A DNA stretch of 64,000 bases from a virus: the IMG/VR virus record IMGVR_UViG_3300033144_005375, positions 18,296 through 82,295 of that record; one strand, written 5' to 3'. Within the stretch, counting starts at the first letter, position 1. Each line of letters starts with the position of its first letter. The position numbers and the translations under genes were made by a program. This document shows positions 3,301-61,760 of the stretch, piece by piece. The notes under the pieces are model-generated. The model was not told the origin of the DNA. It saw nothing but the letters and a program-made list of their open reading frames with translations, and did not search any database.

Positions 3301-4204
3301 CTACTCGTCGTCCTCGACGTACTCCTGCATGGCCTGCACCAGGAGCCCTCGAGCCACGGCATCCAACGGCTCTTTCGCCGCCCGGACTTCGCTGATCTCG
3401 ATGGGGAACTTTTTACGTTTCTCCTTGAAGACCTCAGTGAAGAATTCGAGGAACCCTCCAGCTTTGCTGGTGCCACCCGACACGACGATGGGGATCGGCT
3501 TGGGCAACGAGAACTTGCCTTGGATCTTCTTGAACTCACTCGCCACGTTGTCGATGGAGTACTCAATCAAGTTCTTGTAGTACATGGCCATCGCCTCCTG
3601 CTCACGCCCCTCGGGACGCATGAGGTTGAGCCCTTTCTCCTTGAGCGTGCACATGCGAGCCTGAGTTGAGTTCACCGACTTCGCAGCACCCCGCGCACTC
3701 GGAGTAGATGATCGCCAACGCCTCGTTGCTCGGGTACGCCTTGTAGCCGCACTCAGTCACGATGCGTTCGAGCACACCACGGTGGTAGACCACGTCGCGA
3801 TCTGGGTCATCGACAGGGGCTGCCGGCACCGAGATGTAGCAGACTTCTTTCTCGCTCTTCGGCGTCCCAAGGACGTGCTTGACGAGGATGCCCAGGATCT
3901 CGAGCGCGTCGATCTCCCCGGCCGCGATGAGACCGGACTGGAGAGGGCGCCGCACTTCTCGGCTGAACATGTTCGCCATGTCGTAGGCGGCATCCCCAAC
4001 GATGACGAGACCGTCATCCGTCTGGACATAGTTGACCCCGCTGAGTTTGAGCATCTTGCGGTGCTCAGCAGGAAGATCGAGGAAAGCATCACGAATACGG
4101 TTCGTGATGACGCCCTCTTTGGTGCGTCGGGCGGCCACGATGTTCATCGTGCCCATATCGAGCCCAACTCCCAGGACCAGCTTTTCACTATCGGTTTCGC
4201 TCAT
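3301..4204 (-). CDS. Actin-fold (MreB/FtsA-like) ATPase, split by an apparent internal deletion and frameshift at about 3690
   Basis: Phosphate-1 loop VGLDMGTMN and connect-1 SNEALA lie in ORF 3602-4204. Adenosine loop IVVSGGTS and connect-2 EPLDAVARG lie in ORF 3301-3675. The phosphate-2 loop is absent. Confidence 0.75.
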
Positions 4205-19271: not shown

Positions 19272-20954
19272 TTACGTCAAGAATTCAGCCAACCGTGTTT
19301 TCACGTTCCCAGGAACGGTCTTGACCTCGGATTCCCAGATCACCAGGCACTCGAGCCCAACCTCAGCGTACGCCTCGATGAGTTCTTGCTCGTGCTCCTC
19401 GGGCCACATATCGGTGAACTTTTCACTATGCCAGTAGTCCCCGTTGACTTCCACTACCTTGCGGAGATCGCGAAAAGGGTGATCAGGGACCGGTCCGCGC
19501 AGCACAAAATCAGGGTTCTTGTGTCGCCCTAGCCGCGGGAGCCATCGCCAAAACCTCCGATCTCCCGTGTACATGAGCCGAGGTTCGAGCTCTTGGACTA
19601 AGCGTTCCGGAACGTTTGGGCCTCGTTGATTGGCCTGGGCATGCAACATCAGTCGAGCGTATTCCCGATCCTGCATCGGGTGCGTCATCCCGTAACGCTC
19701 AACCAGGTCCTCAACCGTCTCGGCGTCCTCGTCGTACGTGGGGAATTCGTGGCCTACTTTGGAAAAGCACTCCCGCAGGATCTTCTCCTTCACCCGCGGC
19801 CATGCAAACGGGTTGTCGTCTCCCCGAAGAACCGGACGCTTGCCTACCAACGCTTCTTGAATCTGGACATAGAGCCGAGATCCCCGCGAGAAGATCTCGG
19901 GATCTCCATATCGTTCAGTGTTTGTCCGACCAGTCTTCCCTCGTGTTTCTTTGTCTTGCTGGGGGTTCTCAACTCCCCACCGGTCCAACATCGTACGCAT
20001 TCGACGAAACCGCGCCACGGCACCAAAATCACGCACCATCCACGCGATACATATCTGCCGGTGACGCTTCATCTGCGTGAGACTTGTACTCTCGTGGCCG
20101 CACAGGCACAGCTCAGGGACCTCTGTGTTAGGCCACCCCTCACAAATCGCCTTGTGGCGACTCGTGACCTTCGTGAAAGCCTCGTCGCAGTGAGGGCAAA
20201 TCTCGTAACTCCCAGAAGCAATCAGGGCTTCTCGATGACGCCGCTCACGCTCGCCACGTTTCCGCGACAACTCCAGAAACCATGCAGGAGCCCGTAAGAA
20301 AGACCGCGCCCCGTGGCGCTCCAAGGTGGTCTGCTCGGTACGTGCCCGAATCTCAGGTACCTGCTGGGGATTCTCGGCGCCGTGCCGCTCCTTCATGGTG
20401 CGCCGGATCTTGGTTTTGATCGGTTCAGAGGCGAAGACGTTCTCGGCCCCGTACCGCTCGAGGTTCGTCTTGGCTCGGCGCCGCTTCACCGCCTTCGCCT
20501 GAAGATGGTGATCGACGCCGTACTTCTTCTGCGCGGCCTGACGGGTCTTCTCTTTAACCTCGTCACTTTGACCGACGTTATCGACGCCGTACTTCTTCTG
20601 CGTCGTCTTCTTACGCTTGGCGCCTGACGACCGAGCAACGACAGGAGCCCTGGGGAACTGAGCTTCGTACTCTTTCCGTTTCATGCCCTCGTGGGCCCGT
20701 TTGAGATGATCACTCAGACGTTTCACACGAATTTGTGTGCCCTCAGCCGCACAGAGAAGGCACCCGACGTAGTCCTCGTTCTCGACCTTCTCAGAAGCCC
20801 ACAGGCCGCGCTGAAAGTGCCTGTCGAAGTTGAACTCCGACGGAGACACCCCAATCACCTCGTCCCATTTGGAGCAGCCGTTCGTGTGCTTCGGGATAGC
20901 CTTGGAAGACGAAAGGACTTTCTGACAAGCGGGGCAGCACACTACCGAAAGCAA
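19272..20954 (-). CDS. Homing-endonuclease-like protein (zinc fingers, YGVxN repeats, Vsr/DUF559-like nuclease)
   Basis: C2H2/C2HC motifs, several (K/R)YG(V/A)xNPxQ repeats, and C-terminal PDF...EVNGDYWH...LVIWESE. Confidence 0.75.
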   Translation of the reverse strand: MLSVVCCPACQKVLSSSKAIPKHTNGCSKWDEVIGVSPSEFNFDRHFQRGLWASEKVENEDYVGCLLCAAEGTQIRVKRLSDHLKRAHEGMKRKEYEAQFPRAPVVARSSGAKRKKTTQKKYGVDNVGQSDEVKEKTRQAAQKKYGVDHHLQAKAVKRRRAKTNLERYGAENVFASEPIKTKIRRTMKERHGAENPQQVPEIRARTEQTTLERHGARSFLRAPAWFLELSRKRGERERRHREALIASGSYEICPHCDEAFTKVTSRHKAICEGWPNTEVPELCLCGHESTSLTQMKRHRQICIAWMVRDFGAVARFRRMRTMLDRWGVENPQQDKETRGKTGRTNTERYGDPEIFSRGSRLYVQIQEALVGKRPVLRGDDNPFAWPRVKEKILRECFSKVGHEFPTYDEDAETVEDLVERYGMTHPMQDREYARLMLHAQANQRGPNVPERLVQELEPRLMYTGDRRFWRWLPRLGRHKNPDFVLRGPVPDHPFRDLRKVVEVNGDYWHSEKFTDMWPEEHEQELIEAYAEVGLECLVIWESEVKTVPGNVKTRLAEFLT

Positions 20955-32102: not shown

Positions 32103-32681
32103 TTATAGGGTTACAACCGTCGCTTCCCGGAGGAATTCATGGATCTCCTCCGAATTCCTGAACCACTCGGCCTCTAAACGCAGGTGGGAAAAACGCGCGT
32201 GTAAGGCGGCTTCCCGATCCATCGTGCCGGGAACCGTTCCCAACAACGTCAACTTGTGCGCGTTCGCAGTTTGAAGTTCCCCAATGCGTCTTTCGATGTC
32301 CTGTGTCCAACCAATCTTGATCGGCCCACCCATACCGGCCTCGACGAAATACACGAGACCATCTCGATCTTTGAGCGCGATGTACTCTGGCTGGTAGCGG
32401 ATCGTTGTGACCCTCACTCGACCATGCACTTCGAATGACTGCCACAGTCCCGTCGAAAGTACGCTGTAGAGCGGCTCTTCCGTGACCGGGCCGTATGCGT
32501 ACGTGACGCCGGAGTTCGTCTTCGTTTCGTCCAGACGAACAAAGTCGGTTCGAAGCACACGCGATGATGCGTGCGTGTCCATCACACAAACGTGATGCGT
32601 CGGAACGAACTCAGCGCTCACAAGGATGTCGGAGTAACACTCCTCCACATCCGTCCGCGTGTAGATCGGTGGTCGGGCCAC
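32103..32681 (-). CDS. T5orf172/MUG113 (GIY-YIG-like) domain protein
   Basis: VYFV...IKIGWT...RRIGELQTAN...EAALHARF...EWF. Confidence 0.8.
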   Translation of the reverse strand: MARPPIYTRTDVEECYSDILVSAEFVPTHHVCVMDTHASSRVLRTDFVRLDETKTNSGVTYAYGPVTEEPLYSVLSTGLWQSFEVHGRVRVTTIRYQPEYIALKDRDGLVYFVEAGMGGPIKIGWTQDIERRIGELQTANAHKLTLLGTVPGTMDREAALHARFSHLRLEAEWFRNSEEIHEFLREATVVTL

Positions 32682-43155: not shown

Positions 43156-43700
43156 GGAACGACCACGTCTTTGCGTTCGTACGCGAACGCAGAAGGGGGC
43201 TCCGAAGCCATCGCCCTCCGTTGCCAGTCATCAGGCTCAGACGGCTCCATCATGCGCAGGAGGGCTCCTTCGTAGGCGACCGCTCGCGAACGTAGCTCAT
43301 CTTGTTGGCCCAACTTGCCGTTGTACGCATCCACAGCCTGGGAGACCACGAAAGTCACAGCCCCCAACTGTCGAGTTGGGTCCTCTGCCGCCATCACGGC
43401 CCAGTTGGGTGGGATCAAAATGACCGACTGCTGAACACCATCCCGGGCAATGACCGCCATGGTCAACGTCGTAACCTCGGCATGGATCGCTGTCAGGCAG
43501 TGCTCGTGTTCGATAACTTTCCAAGCATAAGCGCCCAGGTCGCTCAGGTCCGCGAGCTCAAGGCTACGGAGAGTCTCCACGCAACCGGTGAAAATACGCT
43601 CGACTCGGTGTGCCTGAGCACGCACGCCAGCATCCGGGCTGTCGTCTGCCTGGATGGCCTGGTCCCCGAAGAGATGGGAAATGATGTTCGTTGCATTCAT
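43152..43700 (-). CDS. Hypothetical protein
   Basis: ATGA-coupled to kptA. Confidence 0.6.
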   Translation of the reverse strand: MNATNIISHLFGDQAIQADDSPDAGVRAQAHRVERIFTGCVETLRSLELADLSDLGAYAWKVIEHEHCLTAIHAEVTTLTMAVIARDGVQQSVILIPPNWAVMAAEDPTRQLGAVTFVVSQAVDAYNGKLGQQDELRSRAVAYEGALLRMMEPSEPDDWQRRAMASEPPSAFAYERKDVVVP

Positions 43701-44281
43701 AGATGTGCTCCGTAACGGGGGTCTTCTGGCCACACGAGGAAATCAGTCGGGACGTGGTCCGTGTACCAAACGTCGTTGGCCGTCAGAAAAAACTGGTGGC
43801 CGTCATCGTGCATCTTCTTGGCCTCGACCTTGATGATGACGGGCTTGCCCCTGCGCTGCCCCACGTTCACCGCCGTCGCGTAGTCCCCAGACAGGTGGAC
43901 CGCGTGCCGGTTCATCTTGAGCAGGCCAGCCGACTTGATCGGTGTGACGAACTTGGTCGGCGTCCCATGGTACAGGGTCTCCGGCGGCTCGGTAGGCTTG
44001 TTCCCGAGATCGACCTGGACGCTGTGTCCCTGTCGAGCCCGGATCTTGGTGCCGTCTTCGCTGTACTCGAACCGCTTCTTGTTGTTGTCTCGAACGACCT
44101 CATCCACGATCTCGCGGTTGAGACCACGAGCTCGCTTCACCACCTGGCACTCCCGAAGGAGCGTCTTCACATCAGCCCAGCCGTTCTTGTCCAACTCGAT
44201 CCCGATCTTGCCGGGGTTGTGCCGCAGCACGAGGCTCAAGAACTTCGAGTACCCCTTTAATTGATTCTCTCTCGTATCCAT
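43697..44281 (-). CDS. kptA: RNA 2'-phosphotransferase (Tpt1/KptA)
   Basis: SKFLSLVLRH, KKRF, IRARQGHS, LYHGT, RHAVHLS and WYTDHVP motifs. Confidence 0.95.
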   Translation of the reverse strand: MDTRENQLKGYSKFLSLVLRHNPGKIGIELDKNGWADVKTLLRECQVVKRARGLNREIVDEVVRDNNKKRFEYSEDGTKIRARQGHSVQVDLGNKPTEPPETLYHGTPTKFVTPIKSAGLLKMNRHAVHLSGDYATAVNVGQRRGKPVIIKVEAKKMHDDGHQFFLTANDVWYTDHVPTDFLVWPEDPRYGAHL

Positions 44282-45005: not shown

Positions 45006-45524
45006 CTACCCGAACACGTCAAACGCCGAAGGCTGATTCTCCCCAACGCCTTCCCGAATCTCATGTTCGGAAGCGACGGTGCCGTCCTTGAGGACATGGG
45101 CCAGCTCGATTCCGCGGTCTATGAGATCGGCCCCCACCAGACGGCGCCTGTGGCACCCAATGGGGTCGGCTTCGCTGCACATCAGGGCGACGGCCCCGAG
45201 CGCAGCATTCTTCTCCACGCCGCCCAGGAGCTCCTCGAGCGCTTCCTGGTACTGGGACGACGCCCGGATCTTGTCGTAGTCGATCTTGCCGTTGGTCAGA
45301 AGCGCCTTGTCCTCTGGAACGCCTCCCAGGGAGTGGCCCATCCACACGTAGGGAATCCCGGCTTCCTGGAGGTCTTCGGCGATCACGTACCGGTTGAACT
45401 GCGGGTTGTAGCGACTGAACGGTTTGCTCCGCACGTCCACCACGACGCCGATGCCGTTCTGCTTGAGCCGCTGGATCAGGTTCTCGGTGGGCACGTTGCT
45501 GTGCCCGATCGTGAAAAGTCTCAT
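45006..45524 (-). CDS. DUF488 family protein
   Basis: LFTIGHSN, VDVRSKPFSR..PQFN, LGG, ALMCSE...CHRR. Confidence 0.9.
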   Translation of the reverse strand: MRLFTIGHSNVPTENLIQRLKQNGIGVVVDVRSKPFSRYNPQFNRYVIAEDLQEAGIPYVWMGHSLGGVPEDKALLTNGKIDYDKIRASSQYQEALEELLGGVEKNAALGAVALMCSEADPIGCHRRRLVGADLIDRGIELAHVLKDGTVASEHEIREGVGENQPSAFDVFG

Positions 45525-46189
45525 CCGTTGAGCAGGTCCATGATGTTGGGGCCCTCGATCACCTTGGGCTTCTCGCGCCACGTCCAGGACTTGCGAGCCT
45601 CGAATGGCAGCTTCCCGTGTTTCTCTTCGTAGACCGCCAGGAAAGCACGAGTCCCCTTGTTGACGTAGCCGCCGCCAGTGATCTTGCCGAACTCGGGCTC
45701 GTACTTCCGGAGAATCTCGTCCATCGCACGGTCTCGCTCCACCTTGGCGATGATGGAGGCCGCCGACACGCAGGTATGCCTTTCGTCCGCCTTGTTCTCC
45801 GCTCGGAGGTTTCCCCATTTGGCTCGAAGGCGTCCGAAGATTGGCTCACCGTCACAGATGATGTCGTCCTCGGCAGTGGCCTCGAGTTCTTCGAGAAGCA
45901 TCATCACCCCTTTCCGTTCAAGGTCATCGAGGCGCCCTTCTTTCACGAACTCATCAATCTCAGCGGGGTGAAACGAGACGAGGGCCCAGTGGCAGCGGGC
46001 CCGGACCGCCGGGACCGCTGCGAGACGGGCCATCTTGGCCTTCTTGCCGCTGCCGTATTTTTTGCTGTCCTGGATGCCGAACTTTTGGAGCTCGGCTTCT
46101 TGTTCAAACGTGATAGCCACGCCAGCCATCACCAGCGGACCCAACACGGGCCCCCGTCCCGCCTCGTCGATTCCGATCAGCCTCTTCAT
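45521..46189 (-). CDS. rnhB: Ribonuclease HII
   Basis: IGIDEAGRGPVLGP, DSKK, DG, KAD, VSAASIIAKVERD, GY. Confidence 0.93.
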   Translation of the reverse strand: MKRLIGIDEAGRGPVLGPLVMAGVAITFEQEAELQKFGIQDSKKYGSGKKAKMARLAAVPAVRARCHWALVSFHPAEIDEFVKEGRLDDLERKGVMMLLEELEATAEDDIICDGEPIFGRLRAKWGNLRAENKADERHTCVSAASIIAKVERDRAMDEILRKYEPEFGKITGGGYVNKGTRAFLAVYEEKHGKLPFEARKSWTWREKPKVIEGPNIMDLLNG

Positions 46190-49038: not shown

Positions 49039-49575
49039 CTACTCCATCCGCGAGATGAACCAAGCATCCGTGGTGGGGGACACGCGCCACAAGCCCCAGT
49101 GGCTCTTACCGTCCTCATCAGGGCGCCAGGCGACAACGTAGTCGTCACCCTCTCGCCGTACGACATGCCACTGGTGCTTGCAGATCGACACGGTGTCGGA
49201 CTCGACACCATCTTGCACGAACTCCTTCTCGACGACGGTGTCCCCCTTCTCGATGAGGGAGTACCAAGGACGCGAGAACGCCAACGGTGGCGTGTGCTCG
49301 AGCGGCTCTTTCCCATCGATCAGGAGACGAGCAAGAAGGCCGTCTCGTAGTGAGTGCCCAGCTTCAACCTGGAAATCACGACCGTCCTTGAGGGGAGCGT
49401 AACCACCTTGAACACGCAGCTCCATCCAGCGGCCGATGATCTCAACGGTCTTCCGTGCTTCCTCGAGGTCCATGTGGGGGTTCCTAGTTAGGGAGGACAT
49501 TAGGCGGAGTATTGAGTTCTCAGTTGCGTCCCTTGGAGACTTTCTTATGAGGTCCTCGGGGACTGTGTTCGCCAC
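49039..49575 (-). CDS. Hypothetical protein
   Basis: 178-aa ORF with an AGAG/GCAAG upstream region; continues the operon. Confidence 0.6.
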   Translation of the reverse strand: MANTVPEDLIRKSPRDATENSILRLMSSLTRNPHMDLEEARKTVEIIGRWMELRVQGGYAPLKDGRDFQVEAGHSLRDGLLARLLIDGKEPLEHTPPLAFSRPWYSLIEKGDTVVEKEFVQDGVESDTVSICKHQWHVVRREGDDYVVAWRPDEDGKSHWGLWRVSPTTDAWFISRME

Positions 49576-50630
49576 TCTTGCAGCGTCAGAGCGAACCCGG
49601 TGTCTTCGAGCAACCGGCGCAACGCAACCGTGACGTGGTCGCGCACTAGACCACGGATCTCGGGGTTCGCAAGGTGGCTCTTGGTCGGCTGTGTGTACCG
49701 GGGCTCTGGCACGAACACCGACAACGCGATTTTATGCCCCACGTCGTCGAGCCCAACCTCCCGCAGGGCTTCTTCGACTCCCAGGATGTGGGTGCCGCTG
49801 CTCGTACGGATGCTGTTGGCCCAGGACATGAACTTGGACTTGTCGTCTGGATTGTGCGTCCACTGGATCGCCAGATCGAACTCCAAACCCTCACTACGCA
49901 CGACGACCTGGAAAGGCTCAGTCGGGTGGTAGCCGTACTTCGGGAACGACACTTTCAGAAAATCGGACATGCCGCCGGGCATCGAGATGGCACGGATATC
50001 GTCATCAGATCGGATGGTCCCCTGGAGGTTGGTGCAGGTGGCAGCCATCGCTTCCATCCGTCCCTCAATCCCCGCTCGATTGAACGCCACTTCGTCGAAG
50101 ATCTCGGAGTCGGCCTCAAAAGACACAGAGAACGTGAACCCCTCCGGCAACGGGGTCACCTCGAACATCCAGTCATGTTCAGGCTCCCCACGTCGGTAAC
50201 TCCGCGTGTAGTATTTGCCCTCGTAGAGCGCCGTTACCCGGAGAGTCTCCGAAAGGGCTCGGACAATGACGAGCGAGCCACGGACCTGTTGCTCAGAGAT
50301 GAGTCCCCGGTCAAGCCCCCGGTCAAGCTCACCGAGCGCGCGGTCGAGGGCCTGGTGCACACCGCCGTCACCCATCTTGTCGAGAGAGAACGGCGGTTGG
50401 TTGTCGAGGATGGTGACCCGATTACCGTCCAGTTCCACGAGGAAACGATCGCCGCGACCCGCTCGAGCGTTCTCCAAAATGTTGTCGAGCACGGCGTAGA
50501 CGAGATGGTGCTGCATGCCCGCGTGCGTGCCCCCCAGGTACATGCCGGGACGCATGCGGATGTGCTGAGTCGGGCTCGCGATGATCTTGAGGGGGCTGTT
50601 GCCCCATCCCTCTTCTTTTTCGTCCGCCAT
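49545..50630 (-). CDS. Degenerate GyrB/ParE N-terminal (GHKL plus transducer) fragment
   Basis: HIRMRPGMYLG, HHLVY, WANSIRTSSGTH and PEPRYTQPTK are present. ATPase motifs are altered and there is no TOPRIM domain. Confidence 0.8.
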   Translation of the reverse strand: MADEKEEGWGNSPLKIIASPTQHIRMRPGMYLGGTHAGMQHHLVYAVLDNILENARAGRGDRFLVELDGNRVTILDNQPPFSLDKMGDGGVHQALDRALGELDRGLDRGLISEQQVRGSLVIVRALSETLRVTALYEGKYYTRSYRRGEPEHDWMFEVTPLPEGFTFSVSFEADSEIFDEVAFNRAGIEGRMEAMAATCTNLQGTIRSDDDIRAISMPGGMSDFLKVSFPKYGYHPTEPFQVVVRSEGLEFDLAIQWTHNPDDKSKFMSWANSIRTSSGTHILGVEEALREVGLDDVGHKIALSVFVPEPRYTQPTKSHLANPEIRGLVRDHVTVALRRLLEDTGFALTLQEWRTQSPRTS

Positions 50631-51190
50631 CAGGCTTCTTTCCGAAGCCTCTCCCGGGCTTCCATGAGTGCGAATCCCAGGAGATTCTCGCCCTTCCACT
50701 TGTTGGGGTCCTTCGAGTTGGCCTCTTCACGGCGAAGACCGATGCCCCACACCTTGTCATGCGGACTGGCCTCCACGAGCACCATGTCGAGAGTTCCGAG
50801 AAGGAAATCTCGCAGCTCAGGAACCTGACCGAACTTGGCGACGTTGCCGACAACCACGGCCTCGAACTTGTTTCGATCCCACTTGGCCTGGTCCCAGTTG
50901 CTTACCCGGCGACCGAGAAGTTTCGCCTCGTCGGGGCCCGGACTCGCAAGGATGGCTTGAAGAGACATGCCGTCCTCCATGAGACGGGCCTTCTGCGCCA
51001 TCATCCAGTGCTCGGCCGTCGGGTACTTGATGCCGTCGATCTCGAAGTCAGAAAAGTGCCACTGCGAGAAAACGTAAGGGCCGAGTTTGCTCGTGTCGCC
51101 CCCCTTGCGCCCCCAGAATTTGAGGAAGTCGGGACGGGTTCCTTCGTTCCATGCTTTGACGAGTGTGGCTCGATCGCGGAAGTCCATCAC
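50630..51190 (-). CDS. NADAR (YbiA-like) family protein
   Basis: FSQW...TAEHWMMAQKA...AKLLGR...LVEASPHDKVWGIG...WKGENLLGFALMEARE. Confidence 0.93.
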   Translation of the reverse strand: MMDFRDRATLVKAWNEGTRPDFLKFWGRKGGDTSKLGPYVFSQWHFSDFEIDGIKYPTAEHWMMAQKARLMEDGMSLQAILASPGPDEAKLLGRRVSNWDQAKWDRNKFEAVVVGNVAKFGQVPELRDFLLGTLDMVLVEASPHDKVWGIGLRREEANSKDPNKWKGENLLGFALMEARERLRKEA

Positions 51191-51251: not shown

Positions 51252-51773
51252 CTACGCTTGTTTGGCCGCCCACGCCTGGATCTTGCGACGATCCTTGCCC
51301 TTGGCCCGGTCGCTCAGAAGAGTGCCCTCCAGGTGGTCGTACTCGTGCTGGAGGGCCACCGAGAGCAGATGGTTGTGGCTCGAATCCATCGTGACCTCTT
51401 TGCCTTCGCGATCGAAGGCTGTGATCTTCACCCACTCGGGACGGCCTACCTCCGCCAGTAATCCAGGAAAACTGAGACAGCCTTCGGGTCGCACCAGACG
51501 GTTGTCGTTCACGGGCTCGATCACCGGGTTGATGAAAACCCAAGGCTCCGTCCGCTTGTTTCCGTTGATGGGCTTCTGATCGAGGATGAAGATGCGAACG
51601 TTCTGCCCCACCTGGGGAGCGGCCAAACCGACTCCTTCGTGGTAGAACATCGTGTAAATCATGTCGTCGATCAGCCCTTGAAACTGATCGAGTTCGTCCA
51701 AATTCACGGGGATGCTCGCAGCCTTCAACGAGGCAACGGGGTACTCGAGGATGCTGAGCAATTTGCCGGACAC
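51252..51773 (-). CDS. def: Peptide deformylase
   Basis: GVGLAAPQVG, EGCLS and QHEYDHLEG motifs; GTG start 6 nt after GGGTACAGT. Confidence 0.95.
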   Translation of the reverse strand: MSGKLLSILEYPVASLKAASIPVNLDELDQFQGLIDDMIYTMFYHEGVGLAAPQVGQNVRIFILDQKPINGNKRTEPWVFINPVIEPVNDNRLVRPEGCLSFPGLLAEVGRPEWVKITAFDREGKEVTMDSSHNHLLSVALQHEYDHLEGTLLSDRAKGKDRRKIQAWAAKQA

Positions 51774-51876
51774 ACCACGACTGTACCCACATGTCCCACA
51801 ACTATGCGAACCCGACCCCACGATCTTCGCAGGGTCGTCTCCATTTTTGAATACCGGTCTTATGGCCGGTTCTTTA

Positions 51877-52653
51877 GTGACTGTGTCTGATGTAGTGCCC
51901 CTACGTGTTCTCCTCGGAGAGAGCAACCCCGGTGATGTTGCGATCCTGGAACACATTCTCACCGAGATGTCGGTCGAGCTTCGTCATTGCAATTCGTTGG
52001 CAGATCTCGAACAACACGGAAAAACCTGGGACCCCGACGTGGTGCTTCTCGACCTGCACCTCGAAAACAGTCAGGATTTCATGGTGACCGCTCGGAGCGT
52101 CGTCGCACTGTTTCCGAACATCCCCATCCTTGCGCTCACCAGTCTCGACAACGAATCCTTTGCCCTACGCGCACTGCAAGCCGGCCTCTCAAGGTACTTG
52201 ATCAAGGGCACGCTTTCAGGCGCGGACTTGATGCGGACCCTCAAAGAAGCACAGGCGAGACAACGAGCCCTGCAACTCTCGCTACCCCCAACGTTCAACC
52301 AAAACGATCTTCGAGAAATGATCCAGGATGCGGTCCGTACCGCGCTCAGCGAACCGGACGACCCCAAAGAAAAATCATCCGTCAGAATCGCAGTCTTGGT
52401 CGTCGTCTCGGTCTTCCTTCTTCTGGGAGGCGCCGTGGGCTGGGGCTACTACCAGATCCAGCAAGCCCACGACGCCAGGAAACCCGCCAAGAAGACTGAG
52501 CAGGACAAAAAGGCGGACCAGTTCCAGGAGTTCCAGAGCCTCCGCAACGCGCACTTCAAAAAGCTAACGCGTTGGGAGAGCAGTGGAAAACTAGGACCGG
52601 CTCCAAAGAAACCACCGCGCCTCGAACAGCTTGAGCAAGAGCTGTCTAAGTGA
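51877..52653 (+). CDS. Response-regulator receiver domain plus TM protein
   Basis: PDVVLLDLHL, PILALTS and YLIKG receiver motifs, then TM IAVLVVVSVFLLLGGAVGWG. Start uncertain. Confidence 0.75.
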   Translation: MTVSDVVPLRVLLGESNPGDVAILEHILTEMSVELRHCNSLADLEQHGKTWDPDVVLLDLHLENSQDFMVTARSVVALFPNIPILALTSLDNESFALRALQAGLSRYLIKGTLSGADLMRTLKEAQARQRALQLSLPPTFNQNDLREMIQDAVRTALSEPDDPKEKSSVRIAVLVVVSVFLLLGGAVGWGYYQIQQAHDARKPAKKTEQDKKADQFQEFQSLRNAHFKKLTRWESSGKLGPAPKKPPRLEQLEQELSK

Positions 52654-56428: not shown

Positions 56429-56911
56429 CTACCGTGGCCCACGCGCGCACCTGGTGGACCCGCGCAAAGTACGTTTCACTTTAGAGAGCGATCCGTATCC
56501 ATTCGTGCGAAGCCACGCGTCCACGGCCGTCCAAGTGGTCTTGTACCCCAGGTACGCCGTCGCATCTCCAGACCCGACAGACGGTTGGTTCTCTGTCGCT
56601 CTGTGGAACCGGAAAATCCCCTTCTTGATGATTTCAAGATCATGGGTAGCCCGGAGAGGTTCGATCCCCATCTCCCGACAGAGCTGGGGGAGAGAACTTT
56701 GTCTATTACGGAGCCACGCGTTCACGGTCGACCAAGTGGCCTTGTAACCCACGTACTCCGTCGCATCTCCAGAGTTCACAACCGGGCGTTTCCCCGTCAC
56801 CTGGCGATGCCGACGAATCCCCTCCTTGATGTCCTCAAGATTGTGAGTCTTGTAGATCCCGAGGAGAGTCCCCAGTTCGGCACAGTTGCGGGCCTGTTGT
56901 GCGCCTCTCAC
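56429..56911 (-). CDS. Helical-repeat protein (2 repeats)
   Basis: Two THxLExIKxGI...P...SGDATxYxGYKxTWxxVxAWLR units. Confidence 0.75.
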   Translation of the reverse strand: MRGAQQARNCAELGTLLGIYKTHNLEDIKEGIRRHRQVTGKRPVVNSGDATEYVGYKATWSTVNAWLRNRQSSLPQLCREMGIEPLRATHDLEIIKKGIFRFHRATENQPSVGSGDATAYLGYKTTWTAVDAWLRTNGYGSLSKVKRTLRGSTRCARGPR

Positions 56912-58629
56912 CGTGCCACCCCCGAAATCTTGTTGCGTCCTTTCTTGGGGAGTCCAAGCTCGTCACAGAATTTTGAGACCGAGGACCCGTGATGGTTGCG
57001 GAGCCACCCGTCCCAGGCTTGGAGATCCAACTGTACGGGGCGGTGACCGTGCTTCTTGAAAAAATCCATCATCACGATACGCGCCTGCTCCAAAGTCCTG
57101 CTGTACTGCCACTCCTTCGGCAGACCGAGTGCATCGCAGAACTTGCGCAATGATGACCCACGATACTCAAGCCATCCCTGCCAAGCTGGCAGGTCCTTTT
57201 TCCGCGGTCGTTTTCCGTTCTCCTTGTAGAACCCGAAGACGACTTTGCGCGCTTCCTCCTCGGTTCGGTCCATTCGCAAGAGAGGGGCGTATCCCATTTC
57301 GTCACACACCGCAGGCAAATTCGTGCCGCGAGTCCGGAGCCACCCGTCAACCTTCTGCATGTCTTTGACCCCGGGCCGACGACCATACTTCTCGGCAAAT
57401 TTACGAATCTCGGTTCGGACTGAGCCCATCGTCCTGCCTCGTACCTCGGGACGTTTCGCTGAGAACCCCATCTCTTCACCGAGTCGGGGTAACGAGATGT
57501 CCTGCGACCGAAGCCACCGCGCGAGCTTGGGGAGATCCCGATGTCTCGGCCGATGCCCGTGGGTCTCGTTAAATTCCCCGACTTCGTGTCGAGCAATCTC
57601 CATGGTGTAGCCGTCTACGGGAAGTCCCATTTCATCGCACAGCTCCCGAAGACTGCTGTCATGTCGCTTGAGCCAGTCGGCTCCTTTTCGTACCTCCTTA
57701 TTCATCGGGCGCCGCTTCTCACGGTCGTAGAACTTTTGGACCTCTTGGGTCACCTGCTTTTTGGAAAGCCTCACACTGGCCTTCCCGGGGTGCGCAACCC
57801 GGGAAGACAGTCCCATATCATTACAGACGCCGTGGAGCGTAATGCCTTTGTGGTGTGCTCGGAGCCAACTACACCAGGCCCCCATCTCTTTGTTCGTTGG
57901 ACGGCTCCCGTGCTCGTTGAAAAATGCCTGAAGATCCTCACGGAGGCGAAGCATGGAACGACGCTTTCTGCGACCTTCAGGAAGCCCCATTTTGTCACAG
58001 AGCTTCGATAGGGTCGTACCCCTTCTCCTCAAGAAGTTGACCCACTCAATCATCTCCTTGTTCGTTGGACGGCGCCCTTCCCGGTCGTAGAGCCGCTGGA
58101 TTTCCTCACGGACCCGTTTGATCGTGCGTGGGGTCTTTCCTGTGGGGAGCCCCATTTCGTCGCACAAATCGTGGAGCGACATCTTGTGGTGGTGGGCAAG
58201 CCACTGGTTTTCGCCCGTCATCTCCCGATTCTTGGGCCGTCTACCCTCCCGGTCGTAGAACTTCCTGATCTTCCGTTCGATGCCCCCCTTCGTGCGCCCG
58301 AAATTCCGACCTCCGGGAAGTCCAAATTTCTCGCAGACCTTGTGAATCGAACTGCCGCGCCGCATCAACCACGCGTCCACGTTACGGAACCCATCTTGAT
58401 CTCTCGGGCGACGCCCGTGCCTCTTGAAGAAAGCGAGAATTTTGGTCTCCACACTTCCCATCGTTCTTTTCACGCTCTCCTTGCGATTGCGAGGCTCCGC
58501 GAGTCCCAACAAGACCGCCACACCATGGCAAGTCCGAGCTTGCGGACTTTCCAGCTTTGCCAGATCGAAACCGTCGATCTCCCCCTCGGCTCCTTCGTCA
58601 CTCATGTGGTCGGTCTTGTCGAAAGTCAC
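56908..58629 (-). CDS. Helical-repeat array protein (9 repeats of about 55 aa)
   Basis: RT..V...I..F...HGRRP...D.....WL...G.SL...CDEMGLP repeated nine times; GTGA overlap with the helicase stop. Confidence 0.8.
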   Translation of the reverse strand: MTFDKTDHMSDEGAEGEIDGFDLAKLESPQARTCHGVAVLLGLAEPRNRKESVKRTMGSVETKILAFFKRHGRRPRDQDGFRNVDAWLMRRGSSIHKVCEKFGLPGGRNFGRTKGGIERKIRKFYDREGRRPKNREMTGENQWLAHHHKMSLHDLCDEMGLPTGKTPRTIKRVREEIQRLYDREGRRPTNKEMIEWVNFLRRRGTTLSKLCDKMGLPEGRRKRRSMLRLREDLQAFFNEHGSRPTNKEMGAWCSWLRAHHKGITLHGVCNDMGLSSRVAHPGKASVRLSKKQVTQEVQKFYDREKRRPMNKEVRKGADWLKRHDSSLRELCDEMGLPVDGYTMEIARHEVGEFNETHGHRPRHRDLPKLARWLRSQDISLPRLGEEMGFSAKRPEVRGRTMGSVRTEIRKFAEKYGRRPGVKDMQKVDGWLRTRGTNLPAVCDEMGYAPLLRMDRTEEEARKVVFGFYKENGKRPRKKDLPAWQGWLEYRGSSLRKFCDALGLPKEWQYSRTLEQARIVMMDFFKKHGHRPVQLDLQAWDGWLRNHHGSSVSKFCDELGLPKKGRNKISGVAR

Positions 58630-60650
58630 GGCGTGGCCTCCATGTTCTTCTGACGCCACGCCATGACAGTTTCCTTGGAGACCGGATGGGCTTGAAGGTA
58701 CGCGTTGACCACACGCCAACTGGTTTCGTACCCCACGTAGGGCGTGGCATCACCGGACGAACTCGTGGGAGGTTTGCCGTGTTCCTCGATGTACTTCACG
58801 GTGCCGGCCATGATGTTGTCGGTGCGGTGTAAAATCCCGACAGTCCTACGCATACTCCGCTCGATCTCTTTGGCGTCACGCCCCGTCAACCGGGAAACCA
58901 TGCGCCAGTTCTTCTTCGACATCGGAGGATCGAATTTGATCTTCCCCCTGTGCTCGCGCACGACGTACTCATCGAACAAGGCGTTGAAAGCCCCCGGAAT
59001 GAGGTCCACAGGGCTCCCCACCGAAGACTTTCGAGACTTGTCCGCAGGGTCCGGCTTCTTTGGCTTGAACATCCTGCGATACGCCAGAGCAAGGGCCTCC
59101 AGCATCGCCTCCCGAGTGTCCTCATCCTTGACGACCGCCGTCACCCGAAGACGCAACAACATTTTCCCTCGGTCATCGAGCCCGAATTTCTCCGCAACAC
59201 GATCCATTTCCGCGAGGCTCAGACTGTCTTCTTCGGGCCGAAGGAACTTGAACGCCACATCAACAGCTTGCATCTCCTCATCCGTGGGCTGGAGCTTGGA
59301 CTCGATCTCGTCGAGGTCCACAGACACAGGTGCCGCAGGAGTGTTGAATTTCACCACGTCCCGGATCACCGACACGAGCATCTGCCCGGCCTCATGGTCC
59401 TCGAGATGCCCAGCCATGAGCAACGCCATCCGAAGGTGGGCGGACTCGAAGGCAGGACGCGCCATCTTGACCTTCATCTCTTTCGTGAACTCCGGCACGA
59501 AGAACGTGATCCGAGCGATCTCAGGATGAAGATGCCCCGTGATGCCCTCCTTGGTTCGGAAAGCGCGACCCCAACGCTGGTTGGTGCGTCGAATCGATTT
59601 CGGGAATCCAACGTGATAGACGTGGCTGCACAGAGGCCAGTCGGTGCCCTCGTTGAACCGCGCGCAAGCAACGATCACATCCGCCTCTGAGTCGTCGATG
59701 TGGGTCACCTCGCGCTCCGTGGCCAGGAGAGCAACCAAACTGTCCTGGAACGCTTTACCGGTGCCCACCGCGTTGTGGACCCTGGCCTTGTCGCCGCCGC
59801 GGTACGGAACGCGCTCCTTCTGGAACGCCTCCACAACACGATGACTCCACGACTTGGATTTTCCGGGAGGAACGATCACAATTACCTTCGGGTAACCATC
59901 CCTGCGCCACTCGCGAACCATTTTCTTGATCGCCCCGGTGCTGATGCGCCTGGGGAGCTTCCGCCCGTAAAGCTCATCGTTGGTACGCACCCGATAACCG
60001 GAAAGCCCCACCGCGTGGATCTCAAAGTACTTCGGGGCGTAGCGTTTCCCATCCACATCCGGCAACGAATGCTGGGCGATGGAGCGGCGCACCTGGACGA
60101 AACTTTCGTCGTACACCCGTAGACCATCCGTTCGGTAAGGCGACGCGGATACTATGGCCAAACACCCTCCACGGTCTGTCCACTCCTTGCGCTTCTTGCT
60201 GATAAGAGGCGCATCGTCTGTGGTTTCCACGGTACTCCCGTGAGCCTCGTCCACGAACAACACCCACCCCGTCAAATCCTTGGGTAGCGAAATGCCGGTG
60301 AAAGACTGACGACAGACCACCGCAGCGAACGGCCGATCCTGCCAGTGTTTCCGGAGCCATTTCCCGACAACCCGTTTGGTGCTTGGCGCCCCGTTGTAAA
60401 TGGTGGGCTCGAACAGACTTTCCGGAGCAGCCCCGTTCTTCATGAAACTGTCTCGGATCGTCACCATCGGAACCGTCACCACGGCGCCGTTCCAGTCCCC
60501 TCGACTCAACTCGGCAATAACGGAGGAGACCACGGTGGACTTCCCGGCCCCGGTCGGGGCGTTGTAAAGCACATCCCGACCATCGTGAAGGGCCCCGAGA
60601 AGGGCTTTGCGGTGCTTGACTTGGTATGGGCGGAGTTTGAACTTCGTCAT
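58626..60650 (-). CDS. Superfamily 2 helicase/ATPase with a C-terminal helical repeat
   Basis: LRPYQ, APTGAGKS, VDEAH, SASPYRTD, FNEGTDWP and QRWGRAFR. Confidence 0.88.
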   Translation of the reverse strand: MTKFKLRPYQVKHRKALLGALHDGRDVLYNAPTGAGKSTVVSSVIAELSRGDWNGAVVTVPMVTIRDSFMKNGAAPESLFEPTIYNGAPSTKRVVGKWLRKHWQDRPFAAVVCRQSFTGISLPKDLTGWVLFVDEAHGSTVETTDDAPLISKKRKEWTDRGGCLAIVSASPYRTDGLRVYDESFVQVRRSIAQHSLPDVDGKRYAPKYFEIHAVGLSGYRVRTNDELYGRKLPRRISTGAIKKMVREWRRDGYPKVIVIVPPGKSKSWSHRVVEAFQKERVPYRGGDKARVHNAVGTGKAFQDSLVALLATEREVTHIDDSEADVIVACARFNEGTDWPLCSHVYHVGFPKSIRRTNQRWGRAFRTKEGITGHLHPEIARITFFVPEFTKEMKVKMARPAFESAHLRMALLMAGHLEDHEAGQMLVSVIRDVVKFNTPAAPVSVDLDEIESKLQPTDEEMQAVDVAFKFLRPEEDSLSLAEMDRVAEKFGLDDRGKMLLRLRVTAVVKDEDTREAMLEALALAYRRMFKPKKPDPADKSRKSSVGSPVDLIPGAFNALFDEYVVREHRGKIKFDPPMSKKNWRMVSRLTGRDAKEIERSMRRTVGILHRTDNIMAGTVKYIEEHGKPPTSSSGDATPYVGYETSWRVVNAYLQAHPVSKETVMAWRQKNMEATP

Positions 60651-60653
60651 GAC

Positions 60654-61517
60654 CTACTCCCCGTCCTTTCCAGTTCCTGTTGCCAAGGGACGTGTTCCGT
60701 GCTCCTTGTAGTATTTCCGGATGCCCTTCTCGATGTCCTTGAGGTTGTGGGTTCCCACCCCCCGTTCAGGAAACAATTCGTTGAGATACAGAGGGATCTC
60801 CCGATCCTCACTGCGCAGCACCAATGAGGTCTTCAAAAGAAACTTCATCTGCTCGAGGGTTTCCGCGAAGGTCACTTTGGAGGAGTTACTCTCCCACTGA
60901 CGCAGTAAACGACCGAGCGTTTGAGTCACCCCGCGCCGATAGGCACGTTCCGCGGGACTCTGGGGAGCGAGCCCAGAGGTAGCCGTCTCTTTGGCAACTT
61001 TCCACCTGTTTCCGTTGAACACGTCGCCGAGAGCAACACGTCGCATAGGGGCCATGCTCTTGACCGCCTCCTGCAACGGCTGCCATGCCGCTTCCAAATC
61101 CTCCTTTGAATAGCAAATCGCCATCAACCGAGACGCCAAAATGTGAGGGAGCTCCTCTCCCCGGCAAAGGGCCTCATGGAGACTCACCGCATCAGGGTCT
61201 CCAGAGACTCCCTCACCGTCCTCGTCCAGAAAACTGCGACCAAAATAGTCAATGGGATCGTGAAGCATCGGATCACCAGACCACTCCGCACGCATCAGGA
61301 TGACGCAATAAGGAGCACCCTCCGGCACCGTGCCAGTCGGGAACTTCGAACTGTGCACCGCCTTCGCAATGTTCCAGTTCTTGTAGCCGTGACTTGATGC
61401 TACAGCATGGAGACAGTTGACGTGACCGAGCTCGATGCCCTGTTCCGCGAGATGCTGACGCAGCAGCTTGGCCTGAGTTTTGAGAGATGGGATGGTAGAC
61501 GAATTTGTGCTGTCCAT
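60654..61517 (-). CDS. Protein with an N-terminal Glyoxalase_8-like helical domain and a C-terminal half repeat
   Basis: LKTQAKLLRQHLAEQGIELGHVNCLHAVASSHGYKNWN; ends THNLKDIEKGIRKYYKEHGTRP. Confidence 0.75.
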   Translation of the reverse strand: MDSTNSSTIPSLKTQAKLLRQHLAEQGIELGHVNCLHAVASSHGYKNWNIAKAVHSSKFPTGTVPEGAPYCVILMRAEWSGDPMLHDPIDYFGRSFLDEDGEGVSGDPDAVSLHEALCRGEELPHILASRLMAICYSKEDLEAAWQPLQEAVKSMAPMRRVALGDVFNGNRWKVAKETATSGLAPQSPAERAYRRGVTQTLGRLLRQWESNSSKVTFAETLEQMKFLLKTSLVLRSEDREIPLYLNELFPERGVGTHNLKDIEKGIRKYYKEHGTRPLATGTGKDGE

Positions 61518-61683
61518 GATCGTGATCCTTCCTGGTGAGACCCTTAAGAGTTCCGTGCTCGCGTTACGGGGTCTGGGTCTCGAGGAGTGGTCAACGACCA
61601 GGGTTGGAGACGCAGGGTTCGTCAGCGGAGCTTTACCGAGTCTCCCGGGGGAGATGCGAGCGGTAGGCGCTCCTGATGCCTTC
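61518..61683 (-). ncRNA. Candidate structured leader RNA 2 (possible pseudoknot)
   Basis: Stems AGGC/GCCT, TCTCC/GGAGA, TGGTC/GACCA, GAGACCC/GGGTCTC and CCGT/ACGG; the last loop contains GCGAGC, complementary to upstream GCTCGC. Confidence 0.5.
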
Positions 61684-61760
61684 ACCCCTTCTACCCCATC
61701 TTTTTTCACGAACAGCTCAACGAACGATCAACTGCCCCATCCGGGCTGTCCGAGCCCAGT

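What the first reader, a model, noticed from the sequence alone, without database searches (positions are those of the whole stretch)
56429..61517. Four-gene operon: SF2 helicase plus a helical repeat distributed over all four proteins
Seen: four tightly coupled genes all carry the same 55-65-aa repeat (I..F...HG.RP......WL....SL..LC..MG). There is a half copy at the end of gene 1, one at the helicase C-terminus, nine in gene 3 and two in gene 4. Two subtypes exist, with and without SGDATxYVGY. Genes 3 and 4 both begin with QARxCxxxxxLLG. Residues between RP and WL vary on a fixed basic scaffold. Known: similar helical units occur as helicase-associated or homing-endonuclease-associated repeats. 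No nuclease motif is visible. Inference: a modular nucleic-acid-recognition array coupled to a translocase, possibly for phage-phage conflict or transcription control.
Basis: partly seen in the sequence, partly recalled or inferred. Interest (0 to 1): 0.7.

Follow-up and report, generated by a model that had tools for sequence, protein, structure and literature searches.

The report
Phage helicase with split-off repeat proteins
A large uncultured phage encodes a DNA-motor protein next to proteins built from copies of a small, already catalogued three-helix module that is probably DNA-binding; related phages fuse these modules to the motor, so this is an unusual split layout of a known design whose function is still unknown.

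Summary
Four tightly coupled minus-strand genes at 56429-61517 all carry one repeat family. Profiles built only from relatives find nine full units in gene 3, two in gene 4, one truncated unit at the helicase C-terminus and a first-helix fragment at the end of gene 1, and nothing else in the 82-kb genome.

The unit is Pfam HNH_repeat (PF18780; 57 bits against a cut-off of 26). The subtype with the SGDAT insert is the same unit plus a 12-residue insert (hhalign 99.2%).

This is not a decayed single gene:
- Gene 3 is under purifying selection (dN/dS 0.07-0.40).
- Gene 1 and the helicase have orthologs that keep the same truncated tails.
- Seven of 22 helicase loci are split in this way and nine are fused.

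Most likely the repeat proteins are detachable DNA-binding tails of a nuclease-free SF2 helicase. Possibly they dock through a conserved N-terminal motif onto the helicase's truncated unit. DNA binding, docking and biological role are all inferred. The one complex prediction could not be run because the queue was full. No recognition code is shown.

The scan has already reported this design on a related phage (e1-5704944, e1-5704926). It is a new variant of a known kind, of moderate interest.

The parts
60654..61517 (-). Gene 1: 287-aa protein with a Glyoxalase_8-type N-terminal helical module, an unknown middle part and a repeat fragment at its C-terminus
   Evidence: ORF. Pfam PF20066 E 4.3e-11, covering only profile positions 3-56 of 143. 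Orthologs P0139 (80% identity) and P0140 (68%) keep a partial repeat at the C-terminus. The Atlas search added nothing.
60657..60749 (-). Gene 1 C-terminal fragment: first helix of an SGDAT-type unit
   Evidence: Relatives-only SGDAT profile: i-E 2e-6, profile positions 2-25 of 66. tblastn gives 50-65% identity over 25-28 residues to first helices of units in L017, L001 and L016.
58626..60650 (-). SF2 helicase, 674 aa, with no nuclease domain
   Evidence: ResIII 25.6 bits (cut-off 22.5) and Helicase_C 22.7 bits. PHROG 16 'DNA helicase' E 1.5e-14. Motifs I, II (DEAH), III and VI are present. Nine orthologs of 56-75% identity were aligned.
58686..58829 (-). Truncated SGDAT-type unit at the helicase C-terminus (helix 1, insert, helix 2; no helix 3)
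   Evidence: i-E 2.5e-15, profile positions 2-49 of 66. The same truncation is present in 9 of 10 unfused orthologs in alignment A1 and in all 7 unfused loci.
56908..58629 (-). Gene 3: repeat-array protein, 573 aa from the GTG that overlaps the helicase stop (565 aa from the ATG at 58605)
   Evidence: P0039 is 573 aa. Pfam HNH_repeat E 2.3e-15, 57.1 bits. dN/dS against the L001 ortholog is 0.07-0.40.
58501..58542 (-). N-terminal motif of gene 3
   Evidence: Regular-expression hit. This helix has low confidence in the monomer model (pLDDT blocks 57-62).
56944..58467 (-). Nine canonical units at 58312-58467, 58144-58296, 57976-58128, 57805-57960, 57619-57765, 57460-57609, 57286-57435, 57115-57267 and 56944-57099
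   Evidence: Relatives-only profile: 9 domains, i-E 1e-14 to 2e-19. Unit alignment. Three helices per unit in the AlphaFold2 model.
56429..56911 (-). Gene 4: 160-aa protein with the N-terminal motif and two SGDAT-type units
   Evidence: The profile finds 2 domains, 3e-24 and 2.9e-20. AlphaFold2 mean pLDDT 87.0.
56855..56896 (-). N-terminal motif of gene 4
   Evidence: Regular-expression hit. This helix is modelled with pLDDT 53-59.
56462..56848 (-). Two SGDAT-type units (56657-56848 and 56462-56647); the second has a degenerate last helix

Best explanation
This is a split version of a known design, an SF2 helicase that carries a tail of small three-helix HNH_repeat / helicase-associated modules.

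Shown:
- The units are members of Pfam PF18780.
- The same units are fused to the same helicase in related phages.
- In this lineage the tail is spread over separate, translationally coupled genes that are under purifying selection.
- The helicase and gene 1 each end in a conserved truncated unit.
- Every array protein of the close clade that could be checked begins with one conserved motif.

Inferred: the array proteins (nine units and two units, pI about 10) bind DNA and act as detachable, exchangeable tails that tether or direct the nuclease-free helicase on DNA during phage DNA metabolism.

More speculative (about 35%): they attach in trans, the N-terminal motif supplying the helix that is missing from the truncated unit at the helicase C-terminus, and perhaps from gene 1's tail. 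This would be a gene fission inside a domain that turned into a docking joint.
For: Family:
- Pfam HNH_repeat scores 57.1 bits against a cut-off of 26.
- phmmer with gene 3 reaches textbook HNH_repeat proteins. One, P0129, also carries an HNH nuclease domain.
- The SGDAT subtype matches the canonical unit at 99.2%.

Link to the helicase:
- P0043 is a 938-aa helicase of this family followed by seven units.
- Of 22 helicase loci, 9 are fused, 7 are unfused with a truncated terminal unit, 1 is a fused gene broken by a frameshift inside a unit, and 5 have no detectable unit.
- In L024 and L036 (about 30% helicase identity) the unfused helicase is followed by stand-alone arrays of bona fide Pfam HA domains (E 3.8e-24 to 1.7e-76).

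The genes are functional:
- GTGA start/stop overlaps.
- dN/dS 0.07 in scaffold columns, 0.24 in variable columns and 0.40 in linkers, at dS about 0.75-0.79.
- Gene 1's orthologs keep the partial unit.

DNA binding:
- pI 10.2-10.3.
- A preprint says HA domains were 'previously shown to bind DNA', citing Mills 2013 (passage).
- HA is fused to TniQ target selectors (figure legend).
- The best fold matches are HTH DNA-binding domains of TetR, AraC and sigma (Z 4.5, rmsd 3.4, 62 residues aligned; Z 4.2).

Docking:
- 9 of 10 unfused orthologs end right after helix 2.
- In 6 of 7 unfused loci the next gene starts with a short helix-plus-G-hydrophobic-x-x-P motif.
- The motif helix is not confidently packed in cis (pLDDT 53-62).
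Against: - No experiment or calculation here shows DNA binding by these units. All structure matches are below the tool's significance bar: 0 chains with Z of 5 or more, and no Foldseek hit at E 0.001 or better.
- A profile search of the PDB with the unit alignment found nothing significant (best E 0.11).
- Likeness of the N-terminal motif to helix 3 is by eye only. The unit profiles give it scores of 0 or less (several of my slices in that call were also wrong).
- In L024 and L036 the N-terminal stretch resembles the last helix of their own HA-type units. An ordinary cis cap of the first repeat explains that equally well.
- L034's next gene, read by eye as a zinc-finger array, has no such motif.
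- P0011 is an unfused helicase whose terminal units look complete.
- No partner genes are conserved around the helicase, so nothing points to a pathway.
- The only relation to Pfam HA is below threshold (17.3 bits against 28.4; hhalign 22%).
Confidence: 0.6

Rival explanations
1. The array proteins work on their own as abundant basic DNA-coating or DNA-organising proteins of the phage. They sit by the helicase only because they descend from its tail. The N-terminal motif is simply a cap for the first repeat.
For: - The proteins have a high pI and many independent three-helix beads joined by flexible linkers (pTM 0.24).
- Copy number and gene number differ freely between relatives: a fragment, one truncated unit, 9 and 2 units here against 3, one truncated unit, 9, 5 and 10 in L015.
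- In L024 and L036 the N-terminal stretch looks like the last helix of the array's own unit type.
Against: - It does not explain why the helicase and gene 1 keep a truncated unit at the C-terminus in nearly all orthologs.
- The adjacency holds down to 30% helicase identity.
- The motif helix is not confidently packed on repeat 1 in either monomer model.
Confidence: 0.2
2. This is a decayed or frameshifted single gene: an originally fused helicase-array gene broken by mutations or assembly errors, or still made as one protein by ribosomal frameshifting at the GTGA overlaps.
For: - L020 shows a fused gene split by a frame change in the middle of one unit (profile positions 2-26, then 25-51).
- Gene 3's frame is open for about 40 codons upstream of the helicase stop.
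- Fused forms exist.
Against: - The break points are the same in 9 of 10 orthologs of 55-74% identity and in 7 loci.
- Each downstream gene has its own start codon overlapping the preceding stop.
- dN/dS is far below 1 in gene 3.
- Reading by eye, I saw no slippery heptamer before the helicase stop.
- Gene 1's body is unrelated to the helicase or the arrays.
Confidence: 0.05
3. It is a selfish or conflict module: a nuclease-less relic of a homing endonuclease, or a defence or anti-defence system in which the arrays recognise foreign or modified DNA and the helicase acts on it.
For: - The repeat family is typical of HNH homing endonucleases (P0129 carries HNH).
- LAGLIDADG or T5orf172 genes lie next to the helicase in L015, L021 and L023.
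- Array content turns over quickly between relatives.
- A DNA methylase lies 1.5 kb upstream.
Against: - No nuclease domain is found in any of the four proteins.
- PADLOC matched only short helicase-motif stretches (best 3.4e-6 over residues 321-366).
- The variable columns are under purifying, not diversifying, selection (dN/dS 0.24).
- The neighbouring endonuclease genes differ from locus to locus.
Confidence: 0.12

Closest known systems
Pfam PF18780, HNH_repeat (homing endonuclease associated repeat)
   Same: Gene 3 scores 57.1 bits against the family cut-off of 26. The unit is about 51-54 residues with three helices in tandem. phmmer links gene 3 directly to proteins with 6-14 textbook copies.
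   Different: No HNH or other nuclease is attached. The units are spread over four proteins around a helicase. A subtype carries a 12-residue insert that Pfam's model does not detect in gene 4.
SF2 helicases with C-terminal helicase-associated (HA, Pfam PF03457) domain repeats
   Same: The overall design is the same: a ResIII/Helicase_C motor plus a tail of small three-helix modules. Distant members of this very helicase family are followed by true HA arrays (L024 and L036). One HA domain has a solution structure said to indicate DNA binding (Mills 2013; I saw only the reference title and a citing sentence).
   Different: The window's units do not reach the HA threshold (17.3 bits against 28.4; hhalign 22%). 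The tail is split into separate genes, each starting with a conserved motif, and the helicase keeps only a truncated unit.
Fused relatives of the same helicase (P0043, 938 aa; L021/L022, 966 aa with seven units)
   Same: The helicase core is homologous (33% identity in A1) and the unit type is the same.
   Different: There the first unit is complete and the array is in one polypeptide. Here the chain stops after helix 2 of the first unit.
The related phage already reported by this scan (e1-5704944, e1-5704926; probably the L001/L015 contig)
   Same: The helicase is 74% identical. It has the same nine-unit gene 3 ortholog (78% identity) and the same N-terminal motifs.
   Different: That phage has a three-unit gene upstream of the helicase in place of gene 1, and two further arrays (5 and 10 units) in place of gene 4. 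That is 28 copies counting the helicase's truncated one, against nine in gene 3, two in gene 4, the helicase's truncated one and gene 1's fragment here.
TALE, PPR and zinc-finger arrays (code-bearing modular readers)
   Same: All are tandem small modules with variable surface positions on a fixed scaffold.
   Different: No rigid superhelix is predicted (pTM 0.24). There are no one or two hypervariable positions. All classes of columns are under purifying selection. The Foldseek matches to PPR proteins are not significant (E 0.07-0.3).

Membership tests
Pfam PF18780 HNH_repeat | Sequence score above the curated gathering cut-off | tested here: met
   Gene 3 scores 57.1 bits against 26, E 2.3e-15. 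Gene 4 alone has no Pfam hit to the family, but its units align to the canonical units at 99.2% by hhalign.
Pfam PF18780 HNH_repeat | Tandem units of about 54 residues, each a small helical domain | tested here: met
   Nine units with a period of about 56 residues. Three helices per unit at pLDDT about 80-95.
Pfam PF18780 HNH_repeat | Association with an HNH or other homing nuclease (the name-giving context) | tested here: not met
   No nuclease family is found in any of the four proteins. A crude motif scan of the helicase is negative for PD-(D/E)xK and GIY-YIG. Pfam does not require this context for membership.
Pfam PF03457 HA (helicase associated domain) | Sequence score above the gathering cut-off | tested here: not met
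   Gene 3 scores 17.3 bits against 28.4, E 0.006. hhalign of SGDAT-type units against HA units from L024 and L036 gives probability 22%.
Pfam PF03457 HA (helicase associated domain) | Occurs as repeats attached to or beside SF2 helicases | tested here: met
Superfamily 2 helicase | Motifs I (Walker A), II (DExH), III and VI in two RecA-like domains | tested here: met
   The four motifs are found at residues 34, 134, 168 and 358. ResIII is above its cut-off and Helicase_C just below. ATPase or unwinding activity cannot be tested here.
HTH-type DNA-binding domain | Fold match to solved HTH domains well above background | tested here: inconclusive
   The best matches are TetR, AraC and sigma HTH domains, but only at Z 4.5 (rmsd 3.4, 62 residues aligned) and Z 4.2. 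No chain reaches Z 5.
Code-bearing repeat readers (TALE / PPR type) | Rigid superhelical array, with one or two specificity positions per repeat evolving under diversifying selection | tested here: not met
   pTM 0.24 with low-confidence linkers. Variation is spread over about 20 of 51 columns. dN/dS of the variable columns is 0.24. One ortholog pair only.
Known anti-phage defence systems (PADLOC-DB 2.0) | Match of the proteins to a system's models | tested here: not met
   There were only short helicase-motif matches (DpdF 3.4e-6 over residues 321-366), and none for gene 1, gene 3 or gene 4.

The most novel reading that the evidence does not exclude
The truncated repeat at the C-terminus of the helicase (and of gene 1) and the conserved N-terminal motif of every array protein are two halves of one small domain, separated by gene fission, that reassemble in trans. 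On this reading the motor has a socket into which interchangeable DNA-binding arrays plug. Different phages would then re-target or re-tether one helicase by swapping array genes (9 and 2 units here; 9, 5 and 10 units in L015; HA-type arrays in distant relatives).
Probability: 0.3. Interest if true: 0.7.

Novelty: new variant of a known kind. Interest (0 to 1): 0.45.

Why it matters
HNH_repeat and HA modules are widespread and are attached to helicases, homing nucleases and transposon target selectors. In the papers I could search, their function rests on one structural-genomics study. A phage lineage has cut the repeat tail off its helicase at a fixed point inside a domain and kept several alternative tails under selection. 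That gives a natural two-part system for asking what these modules bind and how a helicase is tethered or directed. If the plug-and-socket reading is right, it is a simple, portable way to attach DNA-binding arrays to a motor. If it is wrong, this is one more split gene of a known family.

Tried and rejected
- **Complex prediction.** It was never accepted because the queue was full (real tries; the hand-ins in between were not sent on). No result exists.
- **Fold searches.** Foldseek of the whole gene 3 model against the PDB gave only generic helical repeats (E 0.07 or worse). The gene 4 model gave calmodulin-like two-lobe matches (E 0.066 or worse) and nothing at E 0.001 or better among viral models. 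VIA-align gave Z of 4.5 or less. I did not see the solved HA domain among the rows shown.
- **PDB sequence searches.** Gene 3 alone found nothing. The unit profile's best hit was E 0.11. The helicase and its profile gave only motif-level hits to XPB and Brr2.
- **Named phage records.** blastn of the locus and tblastn of the helicase and of gene 3 against 50,697 GenBank phage records found no match.
- **Family libraries.** NCBIfam and PADLOC gave nothing beyond helicase motifs.
- **N-terminal motif as helix 3.** Scoring the motif with the unit profiles gave scores of 0 or less, and some of my automatic slices were wrong.
- **Gene 1 as a deletion remnant.** I first read gene 1's tail as a remnant of the three-unit gene seen in L001. 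I rejected this because orthologs keep the tail.
- **DNA-level features.** Tandem Repeats Finder found no DNA-level repeat. The promoter and terminator scan found nothing useful between the genes. No tRNA is present.
- **Atlas search.** The search with gene 1 added nothing.
- **Literature.** PF18780 appears in 1 paper, as a table row only. 'Homing endonuclease associated repeat' appears in 0 papers. PF03457 appears in 3 papers. 'Helicase associated domain' with 'repeat' and 'phage' appears in 3 papers, none on such operons. Mills 2013 itself is not held.
Full report
**What is there**

The window is the last 64 kb of a single 82,295-base contig. It looks like part of a large uncultured phage. 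Almost all long ORFs are on the minus strand. The few family matches include a tail-sheath PHROG, DNA methylase, GyrB-like, peptide deformylase and VWA domains, and Tpt1.

At 56429-61709 four minus-strand ORFs follow each other:
- The helicase is 58626-60650, 674 aa.
- Gene 3 is an ORF at 56908-58719.
- Gene 4 is 56429-56911, 160 aa.

The junctions are tight. Gene 1's stop is 3 nt before the helicase ATG, with a GGAG just upstream. The helicase TGA overlaps a GTG at 58629 (GTGA). That GTG gives the 573-aa form of gene 3 held in the protein database (P0039). Gene 3's TGA overlaps gene 4's GTG in the same way.

**Checking the repeat**

To avoid circularity I built profiles only from relatives.
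- A profile of 15 canonical units from two paralogous arrays of a related phage finds exactly nine units in gene 3 (i-E 1e-14 to 2e-19). Its best hit on residue-shuffled ORFs is 0.17.
- A profile of 36 units of the subtype with the SGDAT insert, taken from other loci, finds two units in gene 4 (3e-24 and 2.9e-20).
- It finds one unit at the helicase C-terminus (2.5e-15). That unit stops at profile position 49 of 66, so it lacks the last helix.
- It matches the last ~24 residues of gene 1 (2e-6, positions 2-25, first helix only).
- It gives no other hit with i-E below 1 outside these four genes among 1683 six-frame ORFs of the genome; gene 3's own canonical units cross-match weakly. Its shuffled control is 1.0.

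The two subtypes are one family. hhalign gives 99.2%, E 1e-19, over the whole unit, with a 12-residue insert between the RP and the conserved W. There is no repeat at the DNA level.

The refinement is that the helicase's copy is truncated.

**What the unit is**

Pfam places gene 3 in HNH_repeat, PF18780 (57.1 bits, cut-off 26). HA (PF03457) is only a sub-threshold hit at 17.3 bits against 28.4.

A full search of 1.84 billion representative proteins with gene 3 gave 96 hits at E 0.001 or better. I scanned 30 of them with Pfam. They include proteins with 6-14 textbook HNH_repeat copies, one with an HNH nuclease domain (P0129) and one with a ResIII helicase domain (P0133).

AlphaFold2 models each unit as three helices.
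- Gene 3: mean pLDDT 75.2 but pTM 0.24, with low-confidence linkers, so it is modelled as beads on a string.
- Gene 4: mean pLDDT 87.0, with the insert forming a short bridge and turn between helices 1 and 2.

Fold searches gave nothing significant. Foldseek found no hit at E 0.001 or better. VIA-align's best matches were Z 4.5 (rmsd 3.4, 62 residues aligned, a TetR DNA-binding domain) and Z 4.2. The top of those lists is dominated by HTH DNA-binding domains (TetR, AraC/Rns, sigma), but by the tool's own standard such Z values can mean only a common helical arrangement.

The claim of DNA binding therefore rests on weaker support:
- the high pI (10.2-10.3);
- a preprint's sentence that helicase-associated domains were 'previously shown to bind DNA', citing Mills 2013 (passage read; the cited paper is not held);
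- a figure legend showing HA fused to TniQ target selectors.

**The helicase**

It has motifs I, II (DEAH), III and VI. ResIII is above its cut-off and it matches PHROG 16 'DNA helicase' (1.5e-14). It has no nuclease domain.

It has no close solved relative. NCBIfam and PADLOC gave no match beyond short motif stretches. tblastn found no match among 50,697 GenBank phage records.

**Relatives: fused and split forms**

The helicase has orthologs of 56-75% identity and 601-759 residues. I aligned nine of them, the window's helicase and the fused P0043. Nine of the ten unfused sequences end just after helix 2 of a single SGDAT-type unit. The exception, P0011, carries two fuller units. P0043 (938 aa) continues with helix 3 and further units, seven in all.

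Across 22 loci:
- 7 have an unfused helicase of 661-680 residues ending in the truncated unit (window, L015, L016, L017, L024, L034, L036).
- 9 have 1-7 units fused (L019, L021, L023, L025, L027, L028, L004, L006, L011).
- 1 (L020) is a fused gene broken by a frame change inside a unit.
- 5 show no unit (L029, L033, L008, L026, L030).

The content of the split arrays differs between relatives.
- The closest relative (L001/L015, 74% helicase identity) has a three-unit gene upstream of the helicase. After it come a nine-unit ortholog of gene 3 (78% identity) and two further arrays of 5 and 10 units.
- L016 has a four-unit SGDAT-type protein and then a canonical array. L017 has the reverse order.
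- In L024 and L036 (about 30% helicase identity) the truncated-tail helicase is followed by stand-alone arrays of true Pfam HA domains (E 3.8e-24 to 1.7e-76; sequences).

No other neighbour is conserved. LAGLIDADG, T5orf172, integrase and Macro genes vary from locus to locus.

**Not a decayed gene**

Between the window and L001, gene 3 has dS of about 0.75-0.79. dN/dS is 0.07 in scaffold columns, 0.24 in the roughly 20 variable columns and 0.40 in linkers. This is purifying selection everywhere and diversifying selection nowhere, though it rests on one ortholog pair.

I first took gene 1 for a deletion remnant, because its body has no counterpart in the relatives' loci. It has two orthologs, P0139 (80%) and P0140 (68%). 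Both keep a partial unit at the C-terminus, and P0140's extends through helix 2. P0139's contig has the same length (12,957 bases) as that of helicase P0008. This suggests, but does not prove, the same neighbourhood.

**The N-terminal motif and the docking idea**

Genes 3 and 4 share a motif near the N-terminus: R/K-A-R/H/Q-N/S-C, then x-E/D-V-A-x-L-L-G. A regular expression for it hits only these two places in the genome's six frames. It also hits 10 further distinct repeat proteins from relatives, starting at residues 5-17 of the eight that are held as protein records.

By eye its hydrophobic pattern resembles helix 3 of a unit, which is exactly the helix missing at the helicase C-terminus. 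In the fused forms that helix sits at the junction. This suggests a fission between helices 2 and 3, with the two halves reassembling in trans.

The support is comparative only:
- the conserved truncation;
- a comparable N-terminal stretch in the first downstream gene of 6 of 7 unfused loci;
- low confidence for the motif helix in both monomer models (pLDDT 53-62).

Against it:
- The unit profiles do not score the motif.
- In L024 and L036 the N-terminal stretch resembles the last helix of the array's own unit type, which fits an ordinary cis cap.
- L034's downstream gene lacks the motif.

The controlled complex prediction that would have tested this was never accepted by the queue (see Tried and rejected).

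**Comparison with what is known, and novelty**

'Helicase plus helicase-associated repeats' is a catalogued architecture and the unit is a catalogued Pfam family. What I did not find in print is the conserved split into several array genes with a fixed break point and a shared N-terminal motif. The searches were:
- PF18780: 1 paper, a table row only;
- 'homing endonuclease associated repeat': 0 papers;
- PF03457: 3 papers;
- 'helicase associated domain' with 'repeat' and 'phage': 3 papers, none on this.

This scan has already described the same design on a related phage (e1-5704944, e1-5704926) and similar ones elsewhere. The window's locus adds three things: a smaller variant (nine units in gene 3, two in gene 4, plus the helicase's truncated unit and gene 1's fragment), the conserved gene 1 with a truncated tail, and the break-point analysis.

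**Verdict**

This is a real, functional, moderately interesting new variant of a known kind. The mechanism beyond 'accessory DNA-binding tails of a helicase' is unproven.

Noticed in passing
window 3304-4204 (-): Two overlapping ORFs (3605-4204 and 3304-3675) match the N-terminal and C-terminal parts of Pfam Volactin, PF25216 (E 4.8e-34 for profile 3-162; E 1.6e-18 for profile 213-321). This is an actin-like gene of a phage in two pieces, split either by a frameshift or by design.
   Followed up: no
window 43700-44281 (-): Tpt1/KptA RNA 2'-phosphotransferase (E 1.4e-47). Peptide deformylase is at 51252-51962 (2e-41), DUF488 at 45006-45818 and a GyrB-like protein at 49545-50699.
   Followed up: no
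L020:74-2807: A distant fused helicase-array gene is interrupted by a frame change in the middle of one repeat unit (profile positions 2-26 in one ORF, 25-51 in the next). It could be a sequencing error, a pseudogene or a programmed shift; this was not resolved.
   Followed up: partly
L034:5915-7081: An unfused helicase with the truncated tail is followed by a 389-aa protein that, by eye, looks like an array of DUF4379-type treble-clef zinc fingers. P0026 has three DUF4379 copies fused to a helicase of this family. The motor therefore seems to accept several kinds of small nucleic-acid-binding modules.
   Followed up: partly
L001:4201-5175 and L021:5833-7806: LAGLIDADG homing endonuclease genes lie just upstream of the helicase module in two relatives, and a T5orf172 gene in L023. 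The window has a T5orf172 gene at 32106-32681 and a DUF7487 / 'homing endonuclease' PHROG protein at 19272-20954.
   Followed up: no
window 61518-61709 (-): Gene 1's frame stays open for 64 codons upstream of the chosen Met, back to a GTG, and this stretch translates to low-complexity sequence. In P0142, a protein sharing only gene 1's N-terminal module, a similar upstream stretch is included in the called protein.
   Followed up: no
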